A DNA stretch of 32,000 bases from NCBI GenBank assembly GCA_001761425.1, contig CP012986.1:930001-962000 (forward strand). The letters are read 5' to 3'. The stretch is from Candidatus Saccharimonadota bacterium. GTDB taxonomy: Archaea; Nanohalarchaeota; Nanosalinia; Nanosalinales; Nanosalinaceae. The stretch's first letter is position 1, and the number at the start of each line of letters is the position of its first letter. Positions 3,858-16,681 of the stretch are shown in pieces. The translations under genes were made by a program, and so were the position numbers. The notes beneath the pieces were generated by a model. It was not told the origin of the DNA and searched no databases. It saw only the letters and a list, made by a program, of their open reading frames with translations.

Positions 3858-3878
3858 GCCTAGGTGCTACTCAAAATT

Positions 3879-4964
3879 ATGACAGAAGATACTCCACAGA
3901 ATATTCCAAGACGCCAGATCGATGACTATGACGTTCCTGACGAATGGAAGGACGACGAAGAAGATAAGGAAGAAGTTCCAGAGGGAGAAGAGCCTGAAGA
4001 AGATGTAGAAGGAGAAGGCTACGAAGTCGTACAGGAAGAAGCAGAGGAAGGAGACACAGTACTGACATGTCCAGAATGTGGTTCTCAGCGCTTCGAAGAA
4101 GACTCAGCTAAAGGAGAACTGGTCTGTATCGAATGTGGAATGGTAATTGACGAAGACAGAATCGACGAATCCGCGGAGTGGAGAGCATTCAACGCAGAGG
4201 AAAAAGAAAAGAAAGCAAGAGCCGGACAGCCACTAACTTATACTAAACACGACATGGGAGTCTCCACAGAGATCGGAAAAGGATCAGGAGAACTCTACAA
4301 AGTCAGCGGAAACAAACGTGCCCAGTACTACAGACTCAGAAAATGGCATAAAAGACTGACCAAGTCAAAGGACCGCAACCTAGGATTCGCACTCAGCGAA
4401 CTAAACTCCATGATCTCCAACCTCAACCTGCCTGAATCAGTCCACGAAGAAGTCGCAAGACTTTACGAAAAAGCAGTGGACCAAGGCCTTGTCCGCGGGA
4501 GAAGCATGGAATCCATCATCTCGGCCATAATATATATTGTAGCCAGAAAACAGGGAACACCGAGAACCCTGGACGAAATCTCTGAAGCATCAGGCATCGA
4601 AAAAAGAGAGATCGGACGCGCATACAGATACGTAGCAAGAGAACTAGGCCTCAGAATCCTACCTGCGAAGCCACAGGACTACGTTCCACGTTTCGCCGGA
4701 AAACTACAGCTAAGCGGAACAGTACAGGCCCGCGCAAGAAACATCCTCAAAGAAGCACGCGAACGAGACCTCCTCTCAGGAAAAGGCCCTACAGGCCTCG
4801 CAGCAGCAGCACTCTACATCGCAGCAGTACTTGAAGGCGAAAAAAGAACACAGAGAGAAGTAGCCGACGTAGTCGGAGTCACAGAAGTAACAATCAGGAA
4901 CCGCTACAAAGAGCTTGCGGAGAAGCTAGGCCTCGAAGAGGAACTAGAAGAAAAATCCAGCTAG
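3879..4964 (+). CDS. tfb: transcription initiation factor TFB with an acidic N-terminal extension of about 60 aa
   Basis: It has a zinc ribbon (CPECGSQRFEE...CIECG), a B-reader/linker and two cyclin repeats (RGRSMESIISAIIYIVAR, GKGPTGLAAAALYIAA). The ATG at 3879 is preferred over the GTG at 3864 given by the ORF track. Confidence 0.9.
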   Translation: MTEDTPQNIPRRQIDDYDVPDEWKDDEEDKEEVPEGEEPEEDVEGEGYEVVQEEAEEGDTVLTCPECGSQRFEEDSAKGELVCIECGMVIDEDRIDESAEWRAFNAEEKEKKARAGQPLTYTKHDMGVSTEIGKGSGELYKVSGNKRAQYYRLRKWHKRLTKSKDRNLGFALSELNSMISNLNLPESVHEEVARLYEKAVDQGLVRGRSMESIISAIIYIVARKQGTPRTLDEISEASGIEKREIGRAYRYVARELGLRILPAKPQDYVPRFAGKLQLSGTVQARARNILKEARERDLLSGKGPTGLAAAALYIAAVLEGEKRTQREVADVVGVTEVTIRNRYKELAEKLGLEEELEEKSS

Positions 4965-4969
4965 TAGTT

Positions 4970-7159
4970 ATGTCATACGACGAAAATATATTCCAAGATG
5001 AAGAGTCCTATGAGAACTTTATCTTGGAATCCTTCCGTCAATTTATTCAAAAAACTCATGGTGGAAAAGATGGCTTTATTCGAGAAGCATCAGAGAACGG
5101 TGTAAACTACAATAAATCTTCAAGATATAGTGAGATCATAGAGAAAATAAGAAATAATGAAGATAGCAAGAAAGAAAAAATTCTGAAAGGGAAAACTGGC
5201 ATTCTAGAAGCGGTTGAATACTATAGCTTATATAAGTTTCAGGTAAGAGGGATAAGAAAAATAGACGAAAATGTAGTTAAAGAGTTTAATTCTTCTCTTA
5301 AAGATACAAAAAATAGCAAAGACAGTAAAAAATCTGCCATAGAACTATGTGAGTCATTAACTAGTAAGAATTTTTCGGAAAGATGGCGCAAATATTGGCT
5401 AAAACAAAATAGGAAACTGCCTCCAGTAATGCTTTTTCAAAATACAGTAATAGGTCCTTTGGGACCGATTCTCAAAAGAGATAAGGAACCTAAAAGATAT
5501 TCGGACTCCAGCCACATCTCACATGGCTATGAAATGGAATATATGACCACCTTAGACCTTTTGATGCTACCTCAAAATTACAGAAAGGCAAGACATAGCA
5601 ATTATCCCTTCAACTTACAAAAGACAGAATTTGTCAAACTTCTTTCCTCCATTTTGTCCTCATGCCGGAATAATATTAACTCATTTGAGGGAACTTATCA
5701 AAAATACATAGAGGACAAGGAAGACCAACTAACTTCTAAAATAGGTCAAATAAAGTCTAGATTAAGTAAAGAAGGTGCAAAATGCTCTGATAAACTGAGT
5801 AATGGCGAAATACCTCTTATCTATGCAGAGATTTCGCAGCTATCAGAAATTTTTCTAGAGAAAGACGAAGTTATTAAGGAGCTTAACGGATTAATTGGAG
5901 ATAATACACTAGTTGTGAGTGAAAGCACTACCCTTAACTTAGGATGGCGAGGCCCCGAATTTAAGGTAACTGAGGAAGGGATAATCGAAAGCAGTAGAGG
6001 TAGCTCGGCATTTAATCTTGCTCAAGATGTAAGCGACCTCAGCGATAAAGAGGCAGCCAGCCACTTAATAGAAATATCTGACAAGGGACTGATAAAATAT
6101 GTAGACGAGTTATCTAAGAAAGAATTTGAAACTTATAGAGAGTTGTTAGAGAAAAACAATCTAAACTACGAAGAAAGGCACCAAATGATAGCAGAGAAAA
6201 CTCAAAAGAGGCTTCTTGAGTCATATGGGATAAATTTACCGATAAGAGACTCAATGAGATTTAGAAACGATTTAGTATTGTTCTTCAAAAATTTAGAAGA
6301 ATTTGAAGAAAACTACAATAACTATGGAAGAAACTTAACTTCTAAAATCACTAACTTATTACGAGACACGAGAGTGAACTCCGAAAGATTCCTAAAAGAA
6401 CTTTTTACTTTAGAAACACTGCTAATAGAGCATATGAGAAAAAGAGAAGATCCATTTCAACAAAAAAATCCGTTATTAACACCTACCTTTGAAGAGAGAT
6501 TAGGCTTTAGCTACACGCCAGGTCGCGTGGGTAATTCCGAAAGAGGCGTAAAATTTTGCAAGAAATGCGTAAGACATCACCTGAACGAACTGAGACCCTA
6601 TATAACGGAAGAACTGGAATTGAAAATAGAGAAGTTTCTAGACACTTCTGAAGCGAGTTTTAGTTTAGGAGACTGGAGAAGCCTAGCGAAGGCCAATGAG
6701 GAACTTATTGAGGATCAAAATCTTAAATTACATGAATCACTTCCAGAAAGATTCTCAAATAGTTTGGAGGAAACAAAAGAAGAGTTTGAAAGATTCATGG
6801 AAAAAAACCATAGCTTGCTAAACACTGCAAGCCATGAAGGAGCTAAGAGAAAGTTTAGAAACAACAGTTCTTTGAGAGATGAATCTATCGGCTTATTAAA
6901 GGGAACAAAACAGGAGTTTAAGAAATTCTTCAGCTTCCTTCCGGGACCATATAGAATAGTTACAGAAAAAGAAGAAATAGATTCTGGATTGACTTCTTAC
7001 GGCGTAGAAAAAATAGGTCTGGACGGCGAGATAATTGAAGATTCAATCTATGGAGTTAACATAAGGGATAAGAAAAAAAGCTACTTCATACTGCCTAGAG
7101 GAAGAAAACATCTAGTTGAACCCATAATAGTTAGAGACGTCGCTGACGAGATTTTCTGA
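4970..7159 (+). CDS. hypothetical 729-aa protein, K/N/S-rich and near charge-neutral, compositionally foreign
   Basis: A long uninterrupted ORF starts 5 nt after the tfb stop. I recognised no catalytic motif. GC is much lower than in the flanks and it contains no AGGCCT copies. Confidence 0.6.
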   Translation: MSYDENIFQDEESYENFILESFRQFIQKTHGGKDGFIREASENGVNYNKSSRYSEIIEKIRNNEDSKKEKILKGKTGILEAVEYYSLYKFQVRGIRKIDENVVKEFNSSLKDTKNSKDSKKSAIELCESLTSKNFSERWRKYWLKQNRKLPPVMLFQNTVIGPLGPILKRDKEPKRYSDSSHISHGYEMEYMTTLDLLMLPQNYRKARHSNYPFNLQKTEFVKLLSSILSSCRNNINSFEGTYQKYIEDKEDQLTSKIGQIKSRLSKEGAKCSDKLSNGEIPLIYAEISQLSEIFLEKDEVIKELNGLIGDNTLVVSESTTLNLGWRGPEFKVTEEGIIESSRGSSAFNLAQDVSDLSDKEAASHLIEISDKGLIKYVDELSKKEFETYRELLEKNNLNYEERHQMIAEKTQKRLLESYGINLPIRDSMRFRNDLVLFFKNLEEFEENYNNYGRNLTSKITNLLRDTRVNSERFLKELFTLETLLIEHMRKREDPFQQKNPLLTPTFEERLGFSYTPGRVGNSERGVKFCKKCVRHHLNELRPYITEELELKIEKFLDTSEASFSLGDWRSLAKANEELIEDQNLKLHESLPERFSNSLEETKEEFERFMEKNHSLLNTASHEGAKRKFRNNSSLRDESIGLLKGTKQEFKKFFSFLPGPYRIVTEKEEIDSGLTSYGVEKIGLDGEIIEDSIYGVNIRDKKKSYFILPRGRKHLVEPIIVRDVADEIF

Positions 7160-7162
7160 TAA

Positions 7163-7576
7163 CTAGTTCAGGTTCTGTTTAGCTATCATTCCCAGTACGA
7201 TGAACACTATTGCGAAGACTATGCTGTATATGACGTTCATGTAGATGTTGCCCTGGTTTCCCAGCTTTATTACAGTTTCAACCAGTGTGGCCAGGGAGAG
7301 AGCTGTTACAAAAACTAGTAGGAGACGCTGTGTAAGCATCTGTTCTTCATGGGTCTTTTTCTCGCTGATGAACTCGAATCCTCTTTCCGTAAGGATGATC
7401 TCTTCCATATCTCTTCTGATAAGGCCTTGTTTCTGGAGGTTGTCAAGAAGTTCTTCGACATGTTCCTCATCATACTCTGTGGCTTCTTCAAGTCTCGAGA
7501 TCATGGATGTATCCATTTCCCAGAAATCTGATTCGCTGTAGATCACTTCAAGGAGATCGACCCATTCCTGCGCCAT
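7163..7576 (-). CDS. small membrane-anchored winged-helix protein
   Basis: The N-terminal segment EEHVEELLDNLQKQGLIRRDMEEIILTERGFEFI is wHTH-like, followed by two C-terminal hydrophobic helices. The ATG at 7576 is preferred over the TTG at 7582. Confidence 0.5.
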   Translation of the reverse strand: MAQEWVDLLEVIYSESDFWEMDTSMISRLEEATEYDEEHVEELLDNLQKQGLIRRDMEEIILTERGFEFISEKKTHEEQMLTQRLLLVFVTALSLATLVETVIKLGNQGNIYMNVIYSIVFAIVFIVLGMIAKQNLN

Positions 7577-7608
7577 AAACAATTCAAGAAGTTAGTCCTA
7601 TTTGAAAC

Positions 7609-8706
7609 CTAGGCCTTGAGATCCCTGATCACATCTTTAAGATCCTGGATCGGTGCATCCGTTTTAACGCCGGTAGGACTGAAATGCGTTCTCTCCACAG
7701 GATAACCTTTCTCCCGCAGAGCCTGTATAAATTCCTCCCTCCTCGGAGAGGAAGTGCCTATATTAGAGGCCAGCGCGTGTATATCGTAGTAAGGAGTTAT
7801 AATCTCCGCTTCCGCATCCAGTTTTTCCAGGAATTCGTAGGCCTCCCATTCCTCCGGCATATCCTCCAGCATATCAGAGGTAAACCTCTGATCGACGAAC
7901 TTTCCAGTCCATAGAGGCCCTGCTTCCTGCGTCTCTTCCCCGCATTCCGGGCAGTTTTTTACACGCTCGAACTTTCTCCACAGACAGTTCCCACAGTAGG
8001 AAAGGTATCCTACGTTTTCCAAGGCCTTGTTCGTCCTTTTCTTCGATTCTGTGACCCTGCCCATGACCCTGGTATAATGCCTTTCATGGAAACAGACTTT
8101 CGGATCAAAGCATTTATCGAAACGAGCGAAGTTCCGGAAAACCTCTTTCAGATAAATTCTGAGGCCTATCTCATGCATGAAATCATTTTTTATCGGCTTT
8201 GAGCCATACCTGCGTTCACAGACTGTCGGATAAGAGCCTGCTGGCGCAGCATTATCAGTGGATGTAAGGCCTACAAAACTTGTATGGTTAGCAGCTCTTG
8301 CTGTAGAATCAAGGAATTTTGTGAAAGATCCAAACGGATCAACATCTATAAAATGGAAGTAATTCCCGAATTCTGACAGAAAGACATTCGCATCCTCCTC
8401 GTGAACTGTTGCCTCAATACCGTTTTCATCAAGGCCTTTCCCAATTGCCTCTACCGCTTCTGGATTCACATCGTTTAAATGAAGATCTGTCGCGTATTCT
8501 CCGTATCTGAATCCTCTGATCCCTGAGGCTGCCAGTGCGTCTGCCACACGGAACTCTTCTTCAAGGCCTGCTCTTTCCCTGAACACTTTTACAGCTATCT
8601 GGGAGATATCACGGTTGTTAAGCATCTTTTCATTGAAAAATACTTCCGAGTCCTTGTCCGGCTCTTCCTCCTCGGGCGCGAAAACTTCCAGGCCTCTTTC
8701 TTCCAT
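7609..8706 (-). CDS. trm1: tRNA (guanine26-N2)-dimethyltransferase
   Basis: It has the FFNEKMLNNRDIS block, a SAM-methyltransferase core and the Cys cluster CGNCLW...CPECG typical of archaeal Trm1. The ATG at 8706 is chosen because a TATA-like element lies about 29 nt upstream. The ORF-track start at 8820 adds 38 unconserved-looking residues. Confidence 0.85.
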   Translation of the reverse strand: MEERGLEVFAPEEEEPDKDSEVFFNEKMLNNRDISQIAVKVFRERAGLEEEFRVADALAASGIRGFRYGEYATDLHLNDVNPEAVEAIGKGLDENGIEATVHEEDANVFLSEFGNYFHFIDVDPFGSFTKFLDSTARAANHTSFVGLTSTDNAAPAGSYPTVCERRYGSKPIKNDFMHEIGLRIYLKEVFRNFARFDKCFDPKVCFHERHYTRVMGRVTESKKRTNKALENVGYLSYCGNCLWRKFERVKNCPECGEETQEAGPLWTGKFVDQRFTSDMLEDMPEEWEAYEFLEKLDAEAEIITPYYDIHALASNIGTSSPRREEFIQALREKGYPVERTHFSPTGVKTDAPIQDLKDVIRDLKA

Positions 8707-8731
8707 GAACAAACTGGTTCCAGTCAAACTT

Positions 8732-8739
8732 CTTATAAC
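8732..8739 (-). promoter_or_regulatory. TATA-like box for trm1
   Basis: GTTATAAG on the minus strand is centred about 29 nt upstream of the ATG at 8706. Confidence 0.35.
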
Positions 8740-8800
8740 AGGAAGCCCGTAAGACTCAAAACTTTTATAAAGAAGTCCGGGTGAAGGCCTCTGCATTTGG

Positions 8801-8808
8801 TTTATAAA
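8801..8808 (+). promoter_or_regulatory. candidate TATA box of the atp operon
   Basis: TTTATAAA lies about 40 nt upstream of the atpH TTG start. GGTGA at 8833-8837 could act as a Shine-Dalgarno sequence. Confidence 0.35.
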
Positions 8809-8844
8809 CCTTACAACCACGAGTGCTAATACGGTGAATTTATC

Positions 8845-16638: not shown

Positions 16639-16660
16639 AAGGCCTCTCAAGGCCTTTTTT
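16639..16660 (+). terminator. hairpin built from two AGGCCT copies plus a T6 run after atpB
   Basis: AAGGCCT-ctca-AGGCCTT followed by TTTTTT (16655-16660). It begins 9 nt after the atpB stop. Confidence 0.45.
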
Positions 16661-16681
16661 CCCTCTATTCACTGATATACG

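What the first reader, a model, noticed from the sequence alone, without database searches (positions are those of the whole stretch)
4970..7159. AT-rich, AGGCCT-free, non-acidic 729-aa orphan gene inserted directly behind tfb
Hand GC counts per 60-nt line are 22/60 at 5041 and 14/60 at 6301 inside the gene. The flanks give 34/60 at 4741 (tfb) and 26/60 at 7381 (downstream gene). The gene has no AGGCCT in 2190 bp, where the window-wide density predicts about 8.

In the first 100 residues, D+E roughly equals K+R by my count, while the neighbouring proteins are strongly acidic.

The ORF starts 5 nt after the tfb stop, with no TATA box or Shine-Dalgarno sequence, and ends 3 nt before a convergent gene. 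It therefore appears to be expressed on the transcript of an essential general transcription factor.

Three independent signals (GC, motif depletion, charge) point to a recent horizontal acquisition of unknown function. It is a candidate defence, host-interaction or selfish gene. I recognised no known domain.
Basis: partly seen in the sequence, partly recalled or inferred. Interest (0 to 1): 0.65.

Follow-up and report, generated by a model that had tools for sequence, protein, structure and literature searches.

The report
Foreign orphan gene wedged behind tfb
A 729-residue gene of foreign composition sits directly behind the transcription factor B gene of a tiny salt-loving archaeon; it belongs to an undescribed protein family that hops between distant archaea, often among antiviral and mobile-element genes, and its function is unknown.

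Summary
ORF 4970..7159 (+) is 35.4% GC against 46.8% for the rest of the window. It is the strongest tetranucleotide outlier (z about 10). It has no AGGCCT, against 115 in the window, and its pI is 6.25 where most neighbours are 4.2-5.5. It starts 5 nt after the tfb stop with no TATA box or Shine-Dalgarno sequence, and ends 3 nt before a convergent gene.

The order AI-2E, tfb, trm1, atpH, atpI is conserved in about 45 Nanohaloarchaeota genomes. None of them carries this gene, and the tfb/trm1 spacer ranges from 2 bp to 4.5 kb with different orphan ORFs. The gene is therefore a lineage-specific insertion in a hypervariable site.

It is not a strict orphan. About 30 full-length relatives (17-31% identical to it, 624-732 aa) occur in Bathyarchaeota-like, thermophile and halophile contigs. 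They are nearly always AT-rich islands without a conserved partner gene. Several lie beside pAgo, Dsr1/SIR2, BrnT, HEPN, integrases, a provirus or tRNA genes. Two copies share a 2,451-bp unit in unrelated contexts.

Pfam, NCBIfam, PADLOC, PHROGs, PDB sequences and Foldseek (model pLDDT 77) found nothing.

Best reading: a laterally acquired cassette from the archaeal defence and mobile-element gene pool, probably read through from tfb. Its biochemical function is unknown.

The parts
3864..4964 (+). tfb (transcription factor B): the native upstream gene, whose transcript probably carries X
   Evidence: It has Zn_Ribbon_TF and TFIIB domains. It is 84-94% identical to the syntenic TFB of about 45 Nanohaloarchaeota, with the C-terminus conserved up to the stop codon. 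Its own TATA-like box TTTTTAATTTTT lies upstream.
4965..4969 (+). 5-nt spacer (TAGTT) between the tfb stop and the X start
   Evidence: Read directly from the sequence. There is no TATA box or Shine-Dalgarno motif in the 60 nt upstream, and no TATA-like hexamer anywhere in the tfb coding sequence.
4970..7159 (+). Gene X: 729 aa, a member of an undescribed archaeal protein family, laterally acquired
   Evidence: ORF. GC is 35.4%, GC3 0.333, pI 6.25 and tetranucleotide z 10.3. Full-length homologues are 17-31% identical to it. dN/dS is 0.18 for one close pair in the family. The gene is absent from all other tfb loci.
4934..7421 (.). Longest AGGCCT-free run in the window
   Evidence: The flanking sites are at 4928 and 7422, a gap of 2494 nt. 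The next longest gap is 1340 nt.
5447..5464 (+). Family motif (T/V)IGPLG, residues 160-165, in a predicted beta-hairpin
   Evidence: G162, P163 and G165 are invariant in 16 of 16 aligned sequences. Strands 154-168 are predicted in the AlphaFold2 model.
6818..6838 (+). Family motif LNxASHE, residues 617-623, containing the invariant H622
   Evidence: H622 is conserved in 18 of 18 sequences, N618 in 13 of 13, and R636 in 16 of 17. The motif lacks the arginine of the HEPN Rx4-6H motif, and hhalign against two HEPN proteins gave probability below 1%.
6944..7135 (+). C-terminal beta-rich domain, residues 659-722
   Evidence: Five strands are predicted. G673, Y677, Y705 and P718 are invariant, and Y694 is conserved in 16 of 17 sequences.
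7160..7162 (.). 3-nt spacer (TAA) between the X stop and the stop of the convergent gene
   Evidence: Read directly from the sequence.
7163..7582 (-). Native 139-aa acidic membrane protein, convergent with X
   Evidence: Homologues that are 51-62% identical lie between tfb and trm1 in L007, L019, L021, L024, L032 and L059, all of which lack X.
7609..8820 (-). trm1 (tRNA methyltransferase, Pfam TRM): the native right-hand anchor of the variable spacer
   Evidence: Pfam PF02005. It is syntenic with tfb in about 45 genomes, with a tfb-trm1 gap of 2 to 4466 bp.

Best explanation
**What it is.** Gene X is an intact, laterally acquired accessory gene. It belongs to a protein family of about 720 aa that has not been described before and that circulates among distantly related archaea. 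It usually travels as a solitary, AT-rich, single-gene cassette with its own promoter and ORF.

**Where it landed.** In this nanohaloarchaeon the ORF sits in the convergent spacer between tfb and trm1. This spacer is hypervariable across Nanohaloarchaeota. The ORF is now packed 5 nt behind tfb and 3 nt before the next gene, with no promoter or ribosome-binding site of its own.

**How it is probably expressed (inferred).** It can only be expressed by transcriptional read-through from tfb and by re-initiation of translation after the tfb stop codon.

**What it probably does (inferred).** Judged from the company its relatives keep, the protein is most likely a stand-alone effector from the defence and mobile-element gene pool, acting against viruses or other mobile elements. 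A small set of invariant polar residues hints at an enzymatic or nucleic-acid-binding site. These are K33, Y53, Q290, N306, E472, H622, Y677 and Y705, with R636 and Y694 conserved in 16 of 17 sequences.

**What is shown and what is not.** The foreign origin, lineage specificity, family membership, purifying selection, solitary cassette behaviour and defence/mobile-element neighbourhoods are shown. Expression through tfb and the defence function are inferred. The stated confidence applies to the whole statement. The lateral-acquisition part alone is about 0.85.
For: **Composition**
- GC is 35.4% against 46.8%, GC3 is 0.333, the tetranucleotide z-score is 10.3, AGGCCT count is 0 of 115, and pI is 6.25.

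**Presence and absence**
- The AI-2E, tfb, trm1, atpH, atpI order is conserved in about 45 Nanohaloarchaeota.
- The family HMM hits none of those loci.
- The tfb-trm1 gap is 2-4466 bp and holds different ORFs, mostly without Pfam domains.
- L006, whose TFB is 94% identical, has a different gene after tfb.

**The family**
- 13 representatives were found among 1.8 billion clusters, and 17 metagenome loci.
- Hosts include Bathyarchaeota and mostly non-halophiles with median pI 8-9.
- dN/dS is 0.18 for one close pair in the family.

**Always AT-rich**
- X is 3-20 GC points below its contig in 13 of 14 loci.

**Solitary and mobile**
- No neighbour family recurs across the loci.
- L001 and L086 share one 2,451-bp block at 94% identity and nothing else. 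The block includes about 180 bp of the 3' end of a flanking gene.
- tRNA genes lie next to X in two contexts.
- A tyrosine integrase lies on the same contig in L088, with a partial one in L105, and a large serine recombinase in L097.
- X lies at the edge of a provirus-like region in L090.

**Defence neighbours**
- A short pAgo lies 7 nt from X in L088 (E = 3e-39), with HEPN_LA2681 and SLFN-AlbA_2 on the other side.
- Dsr1 (E = 1e-80) and a SIR2-like protein lie next to X in L097.
- A BrnT toxin lies 1 nt upstream in L081-85.
- An AbiLi/AriA-like ATPase and a HEPN protein are in L001.
- TnpB, a PIN toxin-antitoxin pair and DUF2201 are in L112.

**Expression signals**
- Homologues have TATA-like boxes near -30.
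- The window copy has no TATA box or Shine-Dalgarno motif, and there is no TATA-like hexamer in the tfb coding sequence.
Against: - Nothing points to a function directly. There was no hit in PADLOC, Pfam, NCBIfam or PHROGs, in PDB sequences, or by Foldseek against PDB and BFVD.
- The defence enrichment is not formally demonstrated. A control set of 84 ORFs near tfb in genomes that lack X also gives generic PADLOC hits such as LmuB, mad2/3 and TnpB.
- Several X copies lie among housekeeping genes, namely the window, L004, L096 and L101/L107.
- The window contains no integrase, tRNA gene or flanking repeat that would show how the gene got in.
- A near-neutral protein may fold poorly in a 'salt-in' cytoplasm, and it has no expression signals, so this particular copy could be silent.
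- No transcript or protein data are available.
Confidence: 0.4

Rival explanations
1. X is the recombinase or transposase of its own small mobile cassette of about 2.3-2.6 kb, which would be a new kind of archaeal insertion element. The window copy would then be a stranded copy that has lost its ends.
For: - In L096 the ORF is bracketed by a perfect 14-nt inverted repeat, TTTTTCGGGGCACT (starting 41 nt before the ATG) and AGTGCCCCGAAAAA (+40).
- L096 also has subterminal repeats in opposite orientation: three copies of AWTTCGTATAT on the left and two copies of a 30-mer on the right.
- The related loci L098, L101 and L103 carry TTTCGGGAGGT and ACCTCCGGAAA at the same positions. Both arms have changed together.
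- X is the only ORF between the repeats.
- A discrete shared block lies in unrelated contexts in L001 and L086.
- X is always solitary and always AT-rich.
- One copy is frameshifted, in L107.
- Many X-bearing contigs are only 2-5 kb long.
Against: - No inverted repeats were found in L001, L086, L088, L097 or the window.
- No target-site duplication was seen.
- The unit shared by L001 and L086 ends inside a fragment of a flanking gene and has no terminal repeats.
- There is no DDE/RNase H, HUH, tyrosine-recombinase or serine-recombinase signature by Pfam or Foldseek.
- The searches found no second copy from the 1.1-Mb genome; the protein's cluster has one member on one contig.
- Family members are highly diverged from one another, and no near-identical multi-copy sets were found.
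- In several loci a separate integrase lies on the same contig.
Confidence: 0.15
2. The window copy is a decaying or silent passenger. It was acquired by illegitimate recombination, is not expressed and has no function in this host.
For: - It has no promoter or Shine-Dalgarno sequence.
- It has 4 T5 runs in the sense strand, 1.8 per kb against 0.38 per kb in other genes.
- Its codon and GC3 usage has not shifted toward the host's, and it is non-acidic in an acidic proteome.
- A homologue in L107 carries a frameshift.
Against: - A 2,190-nt ORF free of stop codons in 35% GC DNA is very unlikely without selection.
- All family-invariant residues are retained.
- The start codon aligns with the N-termini of homologues.
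- The protein is identical in two independent assemblies.
- The 5-nt and 3-nt packing suggests long residence under selection for compactness while the ORF stayed intact.
Confidence: 0.2
3. X is functionally linked to TFB, for example as a modulator of transcription initiation. That would explain why it sits next to tfb.
For: A second, very distant family member, P0003 in L004, also abuts a tfb gene, in convergent orientation. Given about 16 other independent contexts, one further tfb neighbour has a rough chance probability of a few percent. This is my own estimate.
Against: - About 15 other contexts have no tfb nearby.
- About 45 nanohaloarchaeal tfb loci lack X.
- The orientation differs between the two cases.
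- The 3' side of tfb in Nanohaloarchaeota is a general insertion hotspot.
Confidence: 0.05
4. X is an old resident gene, and its odd composition simply reflects its amino-acid content.
For: The family is rich in K, N, I, E, L, F and Y, and it is AT-rich everywhere.
Against: - The gene is absent from every other nanohaloarchaeal tfb locus, and no nanohaloarchaeal homologue turned up in the protein searches.
- GC3, which is largely free of amino-acid constraint, is 0.333 against 0.44-0.60.
- The closest relatives are only 25-31% identical and most are in non-halophiles.
Confidence: 0.03

Closest known systems
Stand-alone genes of prokaryotic defence islands, such as single-protein Abi systems and the uncharacterised 'PDC' candidates of PADLOC
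   Same: X is a solitary gene and is AT-rich relative to its host. It is patchily distributed across phyla. It lies next to pAgo, Dsr1/SIR2, HEPN, toxin-antitoxin toxins, integrases and tRNA genes, and one copy is frameshifted.
   Different: There is no sequence or fold similarity to any catalogued defence protein. Enrichment over a control set was not demonstrated. No phenotype is known.
Small genomic islets, or 'dark matter' islands, in archaeal genomes that were acquired by lateral transfer at hypervariable sites
   Same: X shows compositional deviation, is absent from syntenic loci of relatives, and lies in a spacer that carries different orphan ORFs in different genomes.
   Different: The window holds no integrase, att repeats or tRNA gene. 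The insert is a bare ORF with no intergenic DNA. It is fused into the transcription unit of a general transcription factor.
Insertion sequences and single-gene transposons with terminal inverted repeats
   Same: One subfamily has inverted repeats and subterminal repeats bracketing the single ORF. A discrete unit is shared between unrelated contexts.
   Different: There is no recognisable transposase fold or motif. No target-site duplications were found. No repeats were found in most loci or in the window. The gene appears single-copy in this genome.
BrnT/BrnA type II toxin-antitoxin modules
   Same: In L081-85 the X homologue starts 1 nt after a brnT gene, in the position normally held by the antitoxin brnA.
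   Different: X is 657-729 aa and has no ribbon-helix-helix or other BrnA-like domain. BrnT is absent from all other X loci, including the window.
HEPN-domain RNases
   Same: The region is all-helical and has a conserved N-x3-H motif (LNxASHE). My own recollection is that this resembles the RNxxxH motif of HEPN domains. X also lies beside HEPN genes in L001 and L088.
   Different: The motif's arginine is replaced by an invariant leucine. hhalign against two HEPN proteins gave probability below 1%. Neither Pfam nor Foldseek gave a HEPN match.

Membership tests
Laterally acquired genomic islet | Composition deviates from the host genome (GC, GC3, k-mers) | tested here: met
   GC is 35.4% against 46.8%, GC3 is 0.333 against 0.44-0.60, and the tetranucleotide z-score is 10.3.
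Laterally acquired genomic islet | Absent from the syntenic locus of related genomes | tested here: met
   The family HMM finds no hit in about 70 other tfb loci, including about 45 syntenic nanohaloarchaeal loci. L006 has a different gene after tfb. The caveat is that the nearest relative is only 81-87% identical in tfb DNA.
Laterally acquired genomic islet | Closest homologues lie in unrelated lineages | tested here: met
   The best hits are 25-31% identical. They come from Bathyarchaeota and other contigs, mostly non-halophile.
Laterally acquired genomic islet | Mobility signatures at the insertion (integrase, tRNA, att or direct repeats) | tested here: not met
   The window has no tRNA gene. 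No flanking repeats were found. No integrase was seen among the called genes of the 22-kb surrounding locus. These features are present at homologue loci.
Known anti-phage defence systems (PADLOC-DB v2) | Match to a defence-protein HMM | tested here: not met
   There were 0 families at E <= 1.
Defence-island resident (guilt by association) | Neighbourhood enriched in defence genes relative to background | tested here: inconclusive
   Specific strong neighbours are pAgo at 3e-39, Dsr1 at 1e-80, BrnT, HEPN and an AbiLi-like ATPase. An equally sized control set also gave generic PADLOC hits.
Transposase / insertion sequence | Terminal inverted repeats at the ends of the element | tested here: inconclusive
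   A perfect 14-nt inverted repeat occurs in L096, and co-varying imperfect repeats occur in L098, L101 and L103. None was found in the window, L001, L086, L088 or L097.
Transposase / insertion sequence | Recognisable catalytic domain (DDE/RNase H, HUH, tyrosine or serine recombinase) | tested here: not met
   Pfam found nothing for any of the 20 members. Foldseek gave no match at E <= 0.001 against PDB or BFVD.
Transposase / insertion sequence | Target-site duplications and multiple copies per genome | tested here: not met
   No duplications were seen at the unit boundaries. The protein's cluster has one member on one contig. Whole genomes could not be scanned.
HEPN superfamily | Rx4-6H motif in a four-helix bundle, with profile similarity | tested here: not met
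   The motif is L617-N618-x3-H622 with no arginine. hhalign probability was 0.3% and 0.9%. Pfam found nothing.
BrnA antitoxin | Small protein with a ribbon-helix-helix domain encoded after brnT | tested here: not met
   The position after brnT is seen only in L081-85. No RHH or BrnA domain was found. The protein is 657-729 aa.
tfb operon partner | Conserved adjacency to tfb across genomes | tested here: not met
   Only 2 of about 17 family contexts are adjacent to tfb. None of about 45 other nanohaloarchaeal tfb loci carries X.
tfb-X co-transcription | Read-through transcript and translational re-initiation | not testable with these tools
   Only sequence evidence is available: a 5-nt gap, no TATA box or Shine-Dalgarno motif, and no T-run after tfb.

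The most novel reading that the evidence does not exclude
The X family may be a new, structurally unprecedented class of archaeal protein. It could be a self-mobilising single-gene element whose roughly 720-aa protein is a recombinase of a new type. The inverted and subterminal repeats around the ORF in L096 and L098-L103, and the discrete 2.45-kb shared unit, point that way. Alternatively it could be a new single-protein antiviral system that spreads between archaeal phyla. In either case, a promoterless copy welded onto the tfb transcript of an episymbiotic nanohaloarchaeon would couple a foreign effector to the expression of a core transcription factor.
Probability: 0.25. Interest if true: 0.75.

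Novelty: new member of a known kind. Interest (0 to 1): 0.45.

Why it matters
- **A new family.** It adds a conserved family of about 720-aa proteins under purifying selection to the list of archaeal proteins that are completely uncharacterised. The family has no detectable sequence or fold relative. It travels between Bathyarchaeota-like, thermophilic and halophilic archaea and keeps company with pAgo, Dsr1, toxins and integrases. That makes it a concrete candidate for a new archaeal defence or mobile-element function, and archaeal systems are under-explored.
- **An insertion hotspot.** The convergent tfb/trm1 spacer turns out to be an insertion hotspot across Nanohaloarchaeota. This is useful for finding lineage-specific genes in these reduced symbiont genomes.
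- **A test case for expression.** A foreign ORF with no expression signals of its own, 5 nt behind an essential transcription-factor gene, is a natural test case for read-through and re-initiation in archaea.
- **If function stays unknown.** The finding is then an ordinary, though well documented, laterally transferred islet.

Tried and rejected
- **Family libraries.** Pfam, NCBIfam, PADLOC and PHROGs on X gave nothing significant. Pfam on all 20 family members also gave nothing.
- **PDB sequence profiles.** Alignments A1 and A5 gave only noise, with E >= 0.07.
- **First AlphaFold2 run.** A 4-sequence alignment gave pLDDT 43.6, which is unusable. The second run, with 20 sequences, gave pLDDT 77.4 and pTM 0.60.
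- **Foldseek.** The good model had its best PDB match at E = 0.13 with TM <= 0.11, and its best BFVD match at E = 0.3.
- **Third homologous-protein search.** The 13-sequence alignment returned nothing new.
- **Virus and plasmid collections.** The IMG/VR viral contigs (family alignment A6) and the GenBank phage and PLSDB plasmid collections (X protein) gave no X homologue.
- **HEPN lead.** The LNxASHE motif was tested by hhalign against two HEPN proteins and rejected.
- **Conserved partner gene.** All-against-all BLASTP of neighbours found none.
- **Defence enrichment.** The comparison with a control set was inconclusive, because generic PADLOC models also hit housekeeping ATPases and TnpB.
- **Insertion scars.** A search for att sites, inverted repeats or a tRNA gene around X in the window found none.
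- **Source organism.** The source record is a 1,125,078-bp contig of JGI sample 3300010222. This is consistent with the 1.1-Mb single-scaffold genome 'Candidatus Nanopetramus SG9' (bioRxiv 10.1101/029934). The paper gives no matching accession, so the assignment is an unverified inference.
- **Literature on AGGCCT.** Searches for AGGCCT over-representation in archaea or Nanohaloarchaea found nothing relevant.
Full report
**1. The observation**

The ORF at 4970..7159 (+) is real: ATG start, 729 aa.

The gene is 35.4% GC and the rest of the window 46.8%. The lowest-GC 2,190-nt window in the 32 kb coincides with the gene. GC3 is 0.333, against 0.44-0.60 for all 27 other genes. The tetranucleotide distance to the window average is 0.482. 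The background is 0.215 +/- 0.026 with a maximum of 0.281, so z = 10.3.

AGGCCT occurs 115 times in the window and never in the gene. The run from 4928 to 7422 is the longest AGGCCT-free stretch. Once the gene's own base composition is allowed for, about 3.6 sites would be expected (P(0) about 0.03). This signal is real but partly redundant with the low GC.

The protein has pI 6.25 and a (D+E)/(K+R) ratio of 1.05. Of the other genes, 26 of 27 have pI 4.2-5.5.

The tfb stop is followed by TAGTT and then the ATG. The TGA of X is followed by TAA and then the stop of a convergent 139-aa gene.

Genes in this window that head a transcription unit have a TATA-like box 25-40 nt before the start codon. 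Genes inside operons have GGAGG or GGTGA. X has neither. No TATA-like hexamer exists anywhere in the 1.1-kb tfb coding sequence.

**2. Is it foreign?**

The exact protein is found on a 1,125,078-bp contig (JGI 3300010222) and on an independent Logan assembly.

I used TFB as an anchor and fetched 75 tfb loci from GTDB species representatives. The order AI-2E transporter (-), tfb (+), trm1 (-), atpH, atpI recurs in about 45 Nanohaloarchaeota. An HMM of the X family hits no ORF in any of these loci.

The distance from tfb to trm1 ranges from 2 bp (L010) to 4,466 bp (L052). Six genomes carry only the homologue of the 139-aa membrane protein there. Others carry unrelated ORFs, and nine of the ten I tested have no credible Pfam domain. 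These inserts often have lower GC than their flanks, for example 0.405 against 0.57 in L020.

The closest relative with sequence beyond tfb is L006, whose TFB is 94% identical with the same C-terminus. It has a 61-nt spacer with a TATA-like box, followed by a different, acidic gene that contains AGGCCT.

Both flanking genes in the window are intact up to their native stop codons. X is therefore a lineage-specific insertion into a hypervariable convergent spacer.

'Recent' cannot be established, for two reasons. The nearest relatives are only 81-87% identical in tfb DNA. Low GC also turns out to be a property of the family (section 3).

**3. The family**

X is not a strict orphan. An exhaustive phmmer search of 1.8 billion cluster representatives found 13 proteins. 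A metagenome scan found 17 loci. Two further distant members, P0003 and P0004, are 624 and 657 aa.

Members are 624-732 aa, colinear over their full length, and 17-31% identical to X. One member is annotated in 'Candidatus Bathyarchaeota'. Most host contigs encode basic proteomes, so the hosts are non-halophiles. Only the window and L088 look halophilic.

A close pair within the family has dN/dS = 0.18, which indicates purifying selection on that pair.

Residues conserved across the family:
- K33, Y53, the G162-P163-x-G165 hairpin, Q290, N306, E472, G567, H622, P658, G673, Y677, Y705 and P718 are invariant.
- R636 and Y694 are conserved in 16 of 17 sequences.

In 13 of 14 loci the X gene is 3-20 GC points below the rest of its contig. 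X itself is 29-35% GC in every host examined, including hosts of about 50% GC.

**4. Context of homologues**

No neighbouring gene family recurs across the loci, so X is a stand-alone gene. The neighbourhoods fall into three groups.

(a) Defence or toxin genes:
- L088 holds the best homologue, at 30% identity. There X lies 7 nt from a short pAgo operon (PADLOC E = 3e-39). HEPN_LA2681 and Schlafen-AlbA_2 are on the other side, and a tyrosine integrase is on the same contig.
- In L097 X lies beside Dsr1 (E = 1e-80) and a SIR2-like protein, with a large serine recombinase two genes away.
- In L081-85 X starts 1 nt after a BrnT toxin gene.
- L001 contains a HEPN protein and an AbiLi/AriA-like ATPase.
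- L112 contains TnpB, a PIN/AF2212 pair and DUF2201.
- L093 contains DUF3800 and PRiA4_ORF3.

(b) Mobile-element borders:
- In L090 X lies at the edge of a provirus-like run of small ORFs that includes DUF5131 and a Dam methylase.
- A tRNA-Gln gene lies about 230 nt upstream of X in L098, L101, L103 and L107. An intron-containing tRNA gene lies 47 nt downstream in L104.

(c) Solitary islets between housekeeping genes:
- These are the window, L004, L096 and L101/L107.

A control set of 84 ORFs near tfb also produced generic PADLOC hits. I therefore treat the defence association as suggestive and not proven.

The gene moves as a discrete unit:
- L001 and L086 are 94% identical over one 2,451-bp block, from -49 to +239 around the ORF, and share nothing outside it. 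The block also includes about 180 bp of the 3' end of a flanking gene.
- L099 and L101 are 89% identical from -3 to +104 only.

In one thermophile subfamily the ORF is bracketed by inverted repeats:
- L096 has a perfect 14/14 pair, plus 3 and 2 subterminal repeats in opposite orientation.
- L098, L101 and L103 have imperfect repeats in which both arms have changed together.

No target-site duplication was seen. Other loci and the window have no such repeats.

Homologues have TATA-like boxes near -30. The window copy kept only the ORF.

**5. What the protein is**

There was no hit in Pfam, NCBIfam, PADLOC or PHROGs for X. Pfam also found nothing for any of the 20 members. PDB sequence profiles gave nothing.

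A 20-sequence alignment gave an AlphaFold2 model with mean pLDDT 77.4 and pTM 0.60. Its predicted architecture is:
- helical domain, residues 1-145
- GPxG beta-hairpin, 154-168
- low-confidence insert, 176-210
- helical domain, 214-310
- small beta-meander, 320-341
- helical domain with two long helices, 346-490
- variable linker, 493-524
- helical domain containing H622 and R636, 522-656
- five-stranded C-terminal beta domain, 659-722

Foldseek found no match at E <= 0.001 in the PDB (best E = 0.13, TM <= 0.11) or in BFVD.

The LNxASHE motif recalls the HEPN RNxxxH motif (from memory). It lacks the arginine, and hhalign against two HEPN proteins gave probability below 1%.

No homologue was found in IMG/VR viral contigs (searched with a family alignment), or in GenBank phages or PLSDB plasmids (searched with X).

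**6. Most likely explanation and rivals**

Shown:
- X is an intact, laterally acquired member of an undescribed family.
- One close pair in the family shows purifying selection.
- The gene behaves as a solitary AT-rich cassette in the archaeal accessory gene pool.
- It is inserted at a hypervariable site behind tfb.

Inferred:
- It is expressed only through tfb read-through and translational re-initiation.
- It acts as a defence-type or mobile-element-type effector.

Confidence is about 0.85 for the acquisition and 0.4 for the whole statement. The rivals are:

| Rival | Confidence |
|---|---|
| Self-mobilising element encoding a new recombinase | 0.15 |
| Silent passenger in this host | 0.2 |
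| Functional link to TFB (a second member, P0003, also abuts a tfb) | 0.05 |
| Old resident gene (effectively refuted) | 0.03 |

**7. Verdict**

The gene is not a strict orphan. 'Recent' cannot be dated. The three signals are not independent. Expression from the tfb transcript is untested.

Novelty: this is a new member of a known kind, namely a laterally acquired accessory islet. The protein family itself has no known relative. Interest is moderate at 0.45. It would rise to about 0.75 if the family proves to be a new defence system or a new type of mobile element.

Noticed in passing
whole window (for example 99, 287, 437 ... 31979); also L006, L015, L016, L017, L022, L034, L057 and L060: The palindrome AGGCCT occurs 115 times in 32 kb. 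That is 17.6 times the mononucleotide expectation, and it is by far the most over-represented hexamer. It is found in all three codon phases (15, 30 and 53 sites) and in intergenic DNA (17 sites), so the selection acts at the DNA level. Only some nanohaloarchaeal genomes share the excess (2-4.7 sites per kb), while others have 0-0.5 per kb. In the same window the palindromes CGGCCG, GCATGC and GGGCCC are absent. No explanation was found in the literature.
   Followed up: partly
window 16640-16665: Two AGGCCT copies in tandem (CAAGGCCTCTCAAGGCCTTTTTTCC) are followed by a T-run just after the atpB-like gene. Some AGGCCT sites may form part of terminator-like structures.
   Followed up: no
L004 10001-13275: A very distant family member, P0003 (624 aa), also lies next to a tfb gene, in convergent orientation with a 387-nt gap and Gar1 beyond it. 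The host is an unrelated archaeon of about 41% GC. This is a second tfb adjacency among about 17 contexts, and it may be coincidence.
   Followed up: partly
L096 5159-5272 and 7529-7761: The X homologue is bracketed by nested repeat architecture. There is a perfect 14-nt inverted repeat. On the left are three copies of AWTTCGTATAT at 36-nt spacing. On the right are two copies of a 30-mer containing the inverse motif at 67-nt spacing. This looks like transposon ends or protein-binding arrays.
   Followed up: partly
L099, L102, L098, L101 and L103, about 60-200 nt downstream of X, and upstream of X in L099 and L102: A conserved non-coding unit of about 110 nt (…GGTCACTTAAC…CAAATT…GCAAACTTC.GATA…GAACGTTA) lies downstream of X. 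In L099 and L102 it also lies upstream. It has no Rfam or tRNA match. It could be an element end, an att-like duplication or a host repeat.
   Followed up: partly
L020 9092-12707, L052 9038-13505, L041 9044-11480, L055 8900-12112: Other Nanohaloarchaeota carry different inserts of 2.4-4.5 kb at the same tfb/trm1 spacer. The inserts are mostly low in GC and hold orphan ORFs. L020 is 0.405 GC against 0.57 in its flanks. One insert, in L041, encodes an APH-family kinase.
   Followed up: partly
L107 10001-12168: This X homologue differs from the intact L101 copy by 27 substitutions and one 1-nt indel that breaks the frame. It is either a pseudogene or an assembly error.
   Followed up: yes
L024, L071, L077 and L079 (record titles): Genome records titled Colwellia polaris, Eggerthellaceae, Faecalibacterium and Acutalibacteraceae carry archaeal TFB loci. 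L024 has the full nanohaloarchaeal tfb, trm1, atp synteny. These bins look contaminated or mislabelled.
   Followed up: no
window 3957-4053: Three imperfect copies of a 19-nt GAAGAAGA-rich repeat at 39-nt spacing encode an acidic low-complexity N-terminal extension of TFB.
   Followed up: no
L081-L085 (for example L082 9724-11974): A brnT toxin gene is followed 1 nt later by the 657-aa X homologue, where the small BrnA antitoxin would normally be. This member has an extra N-terminal segment of about 40 aa compared with P0003.
   Followed up: partly
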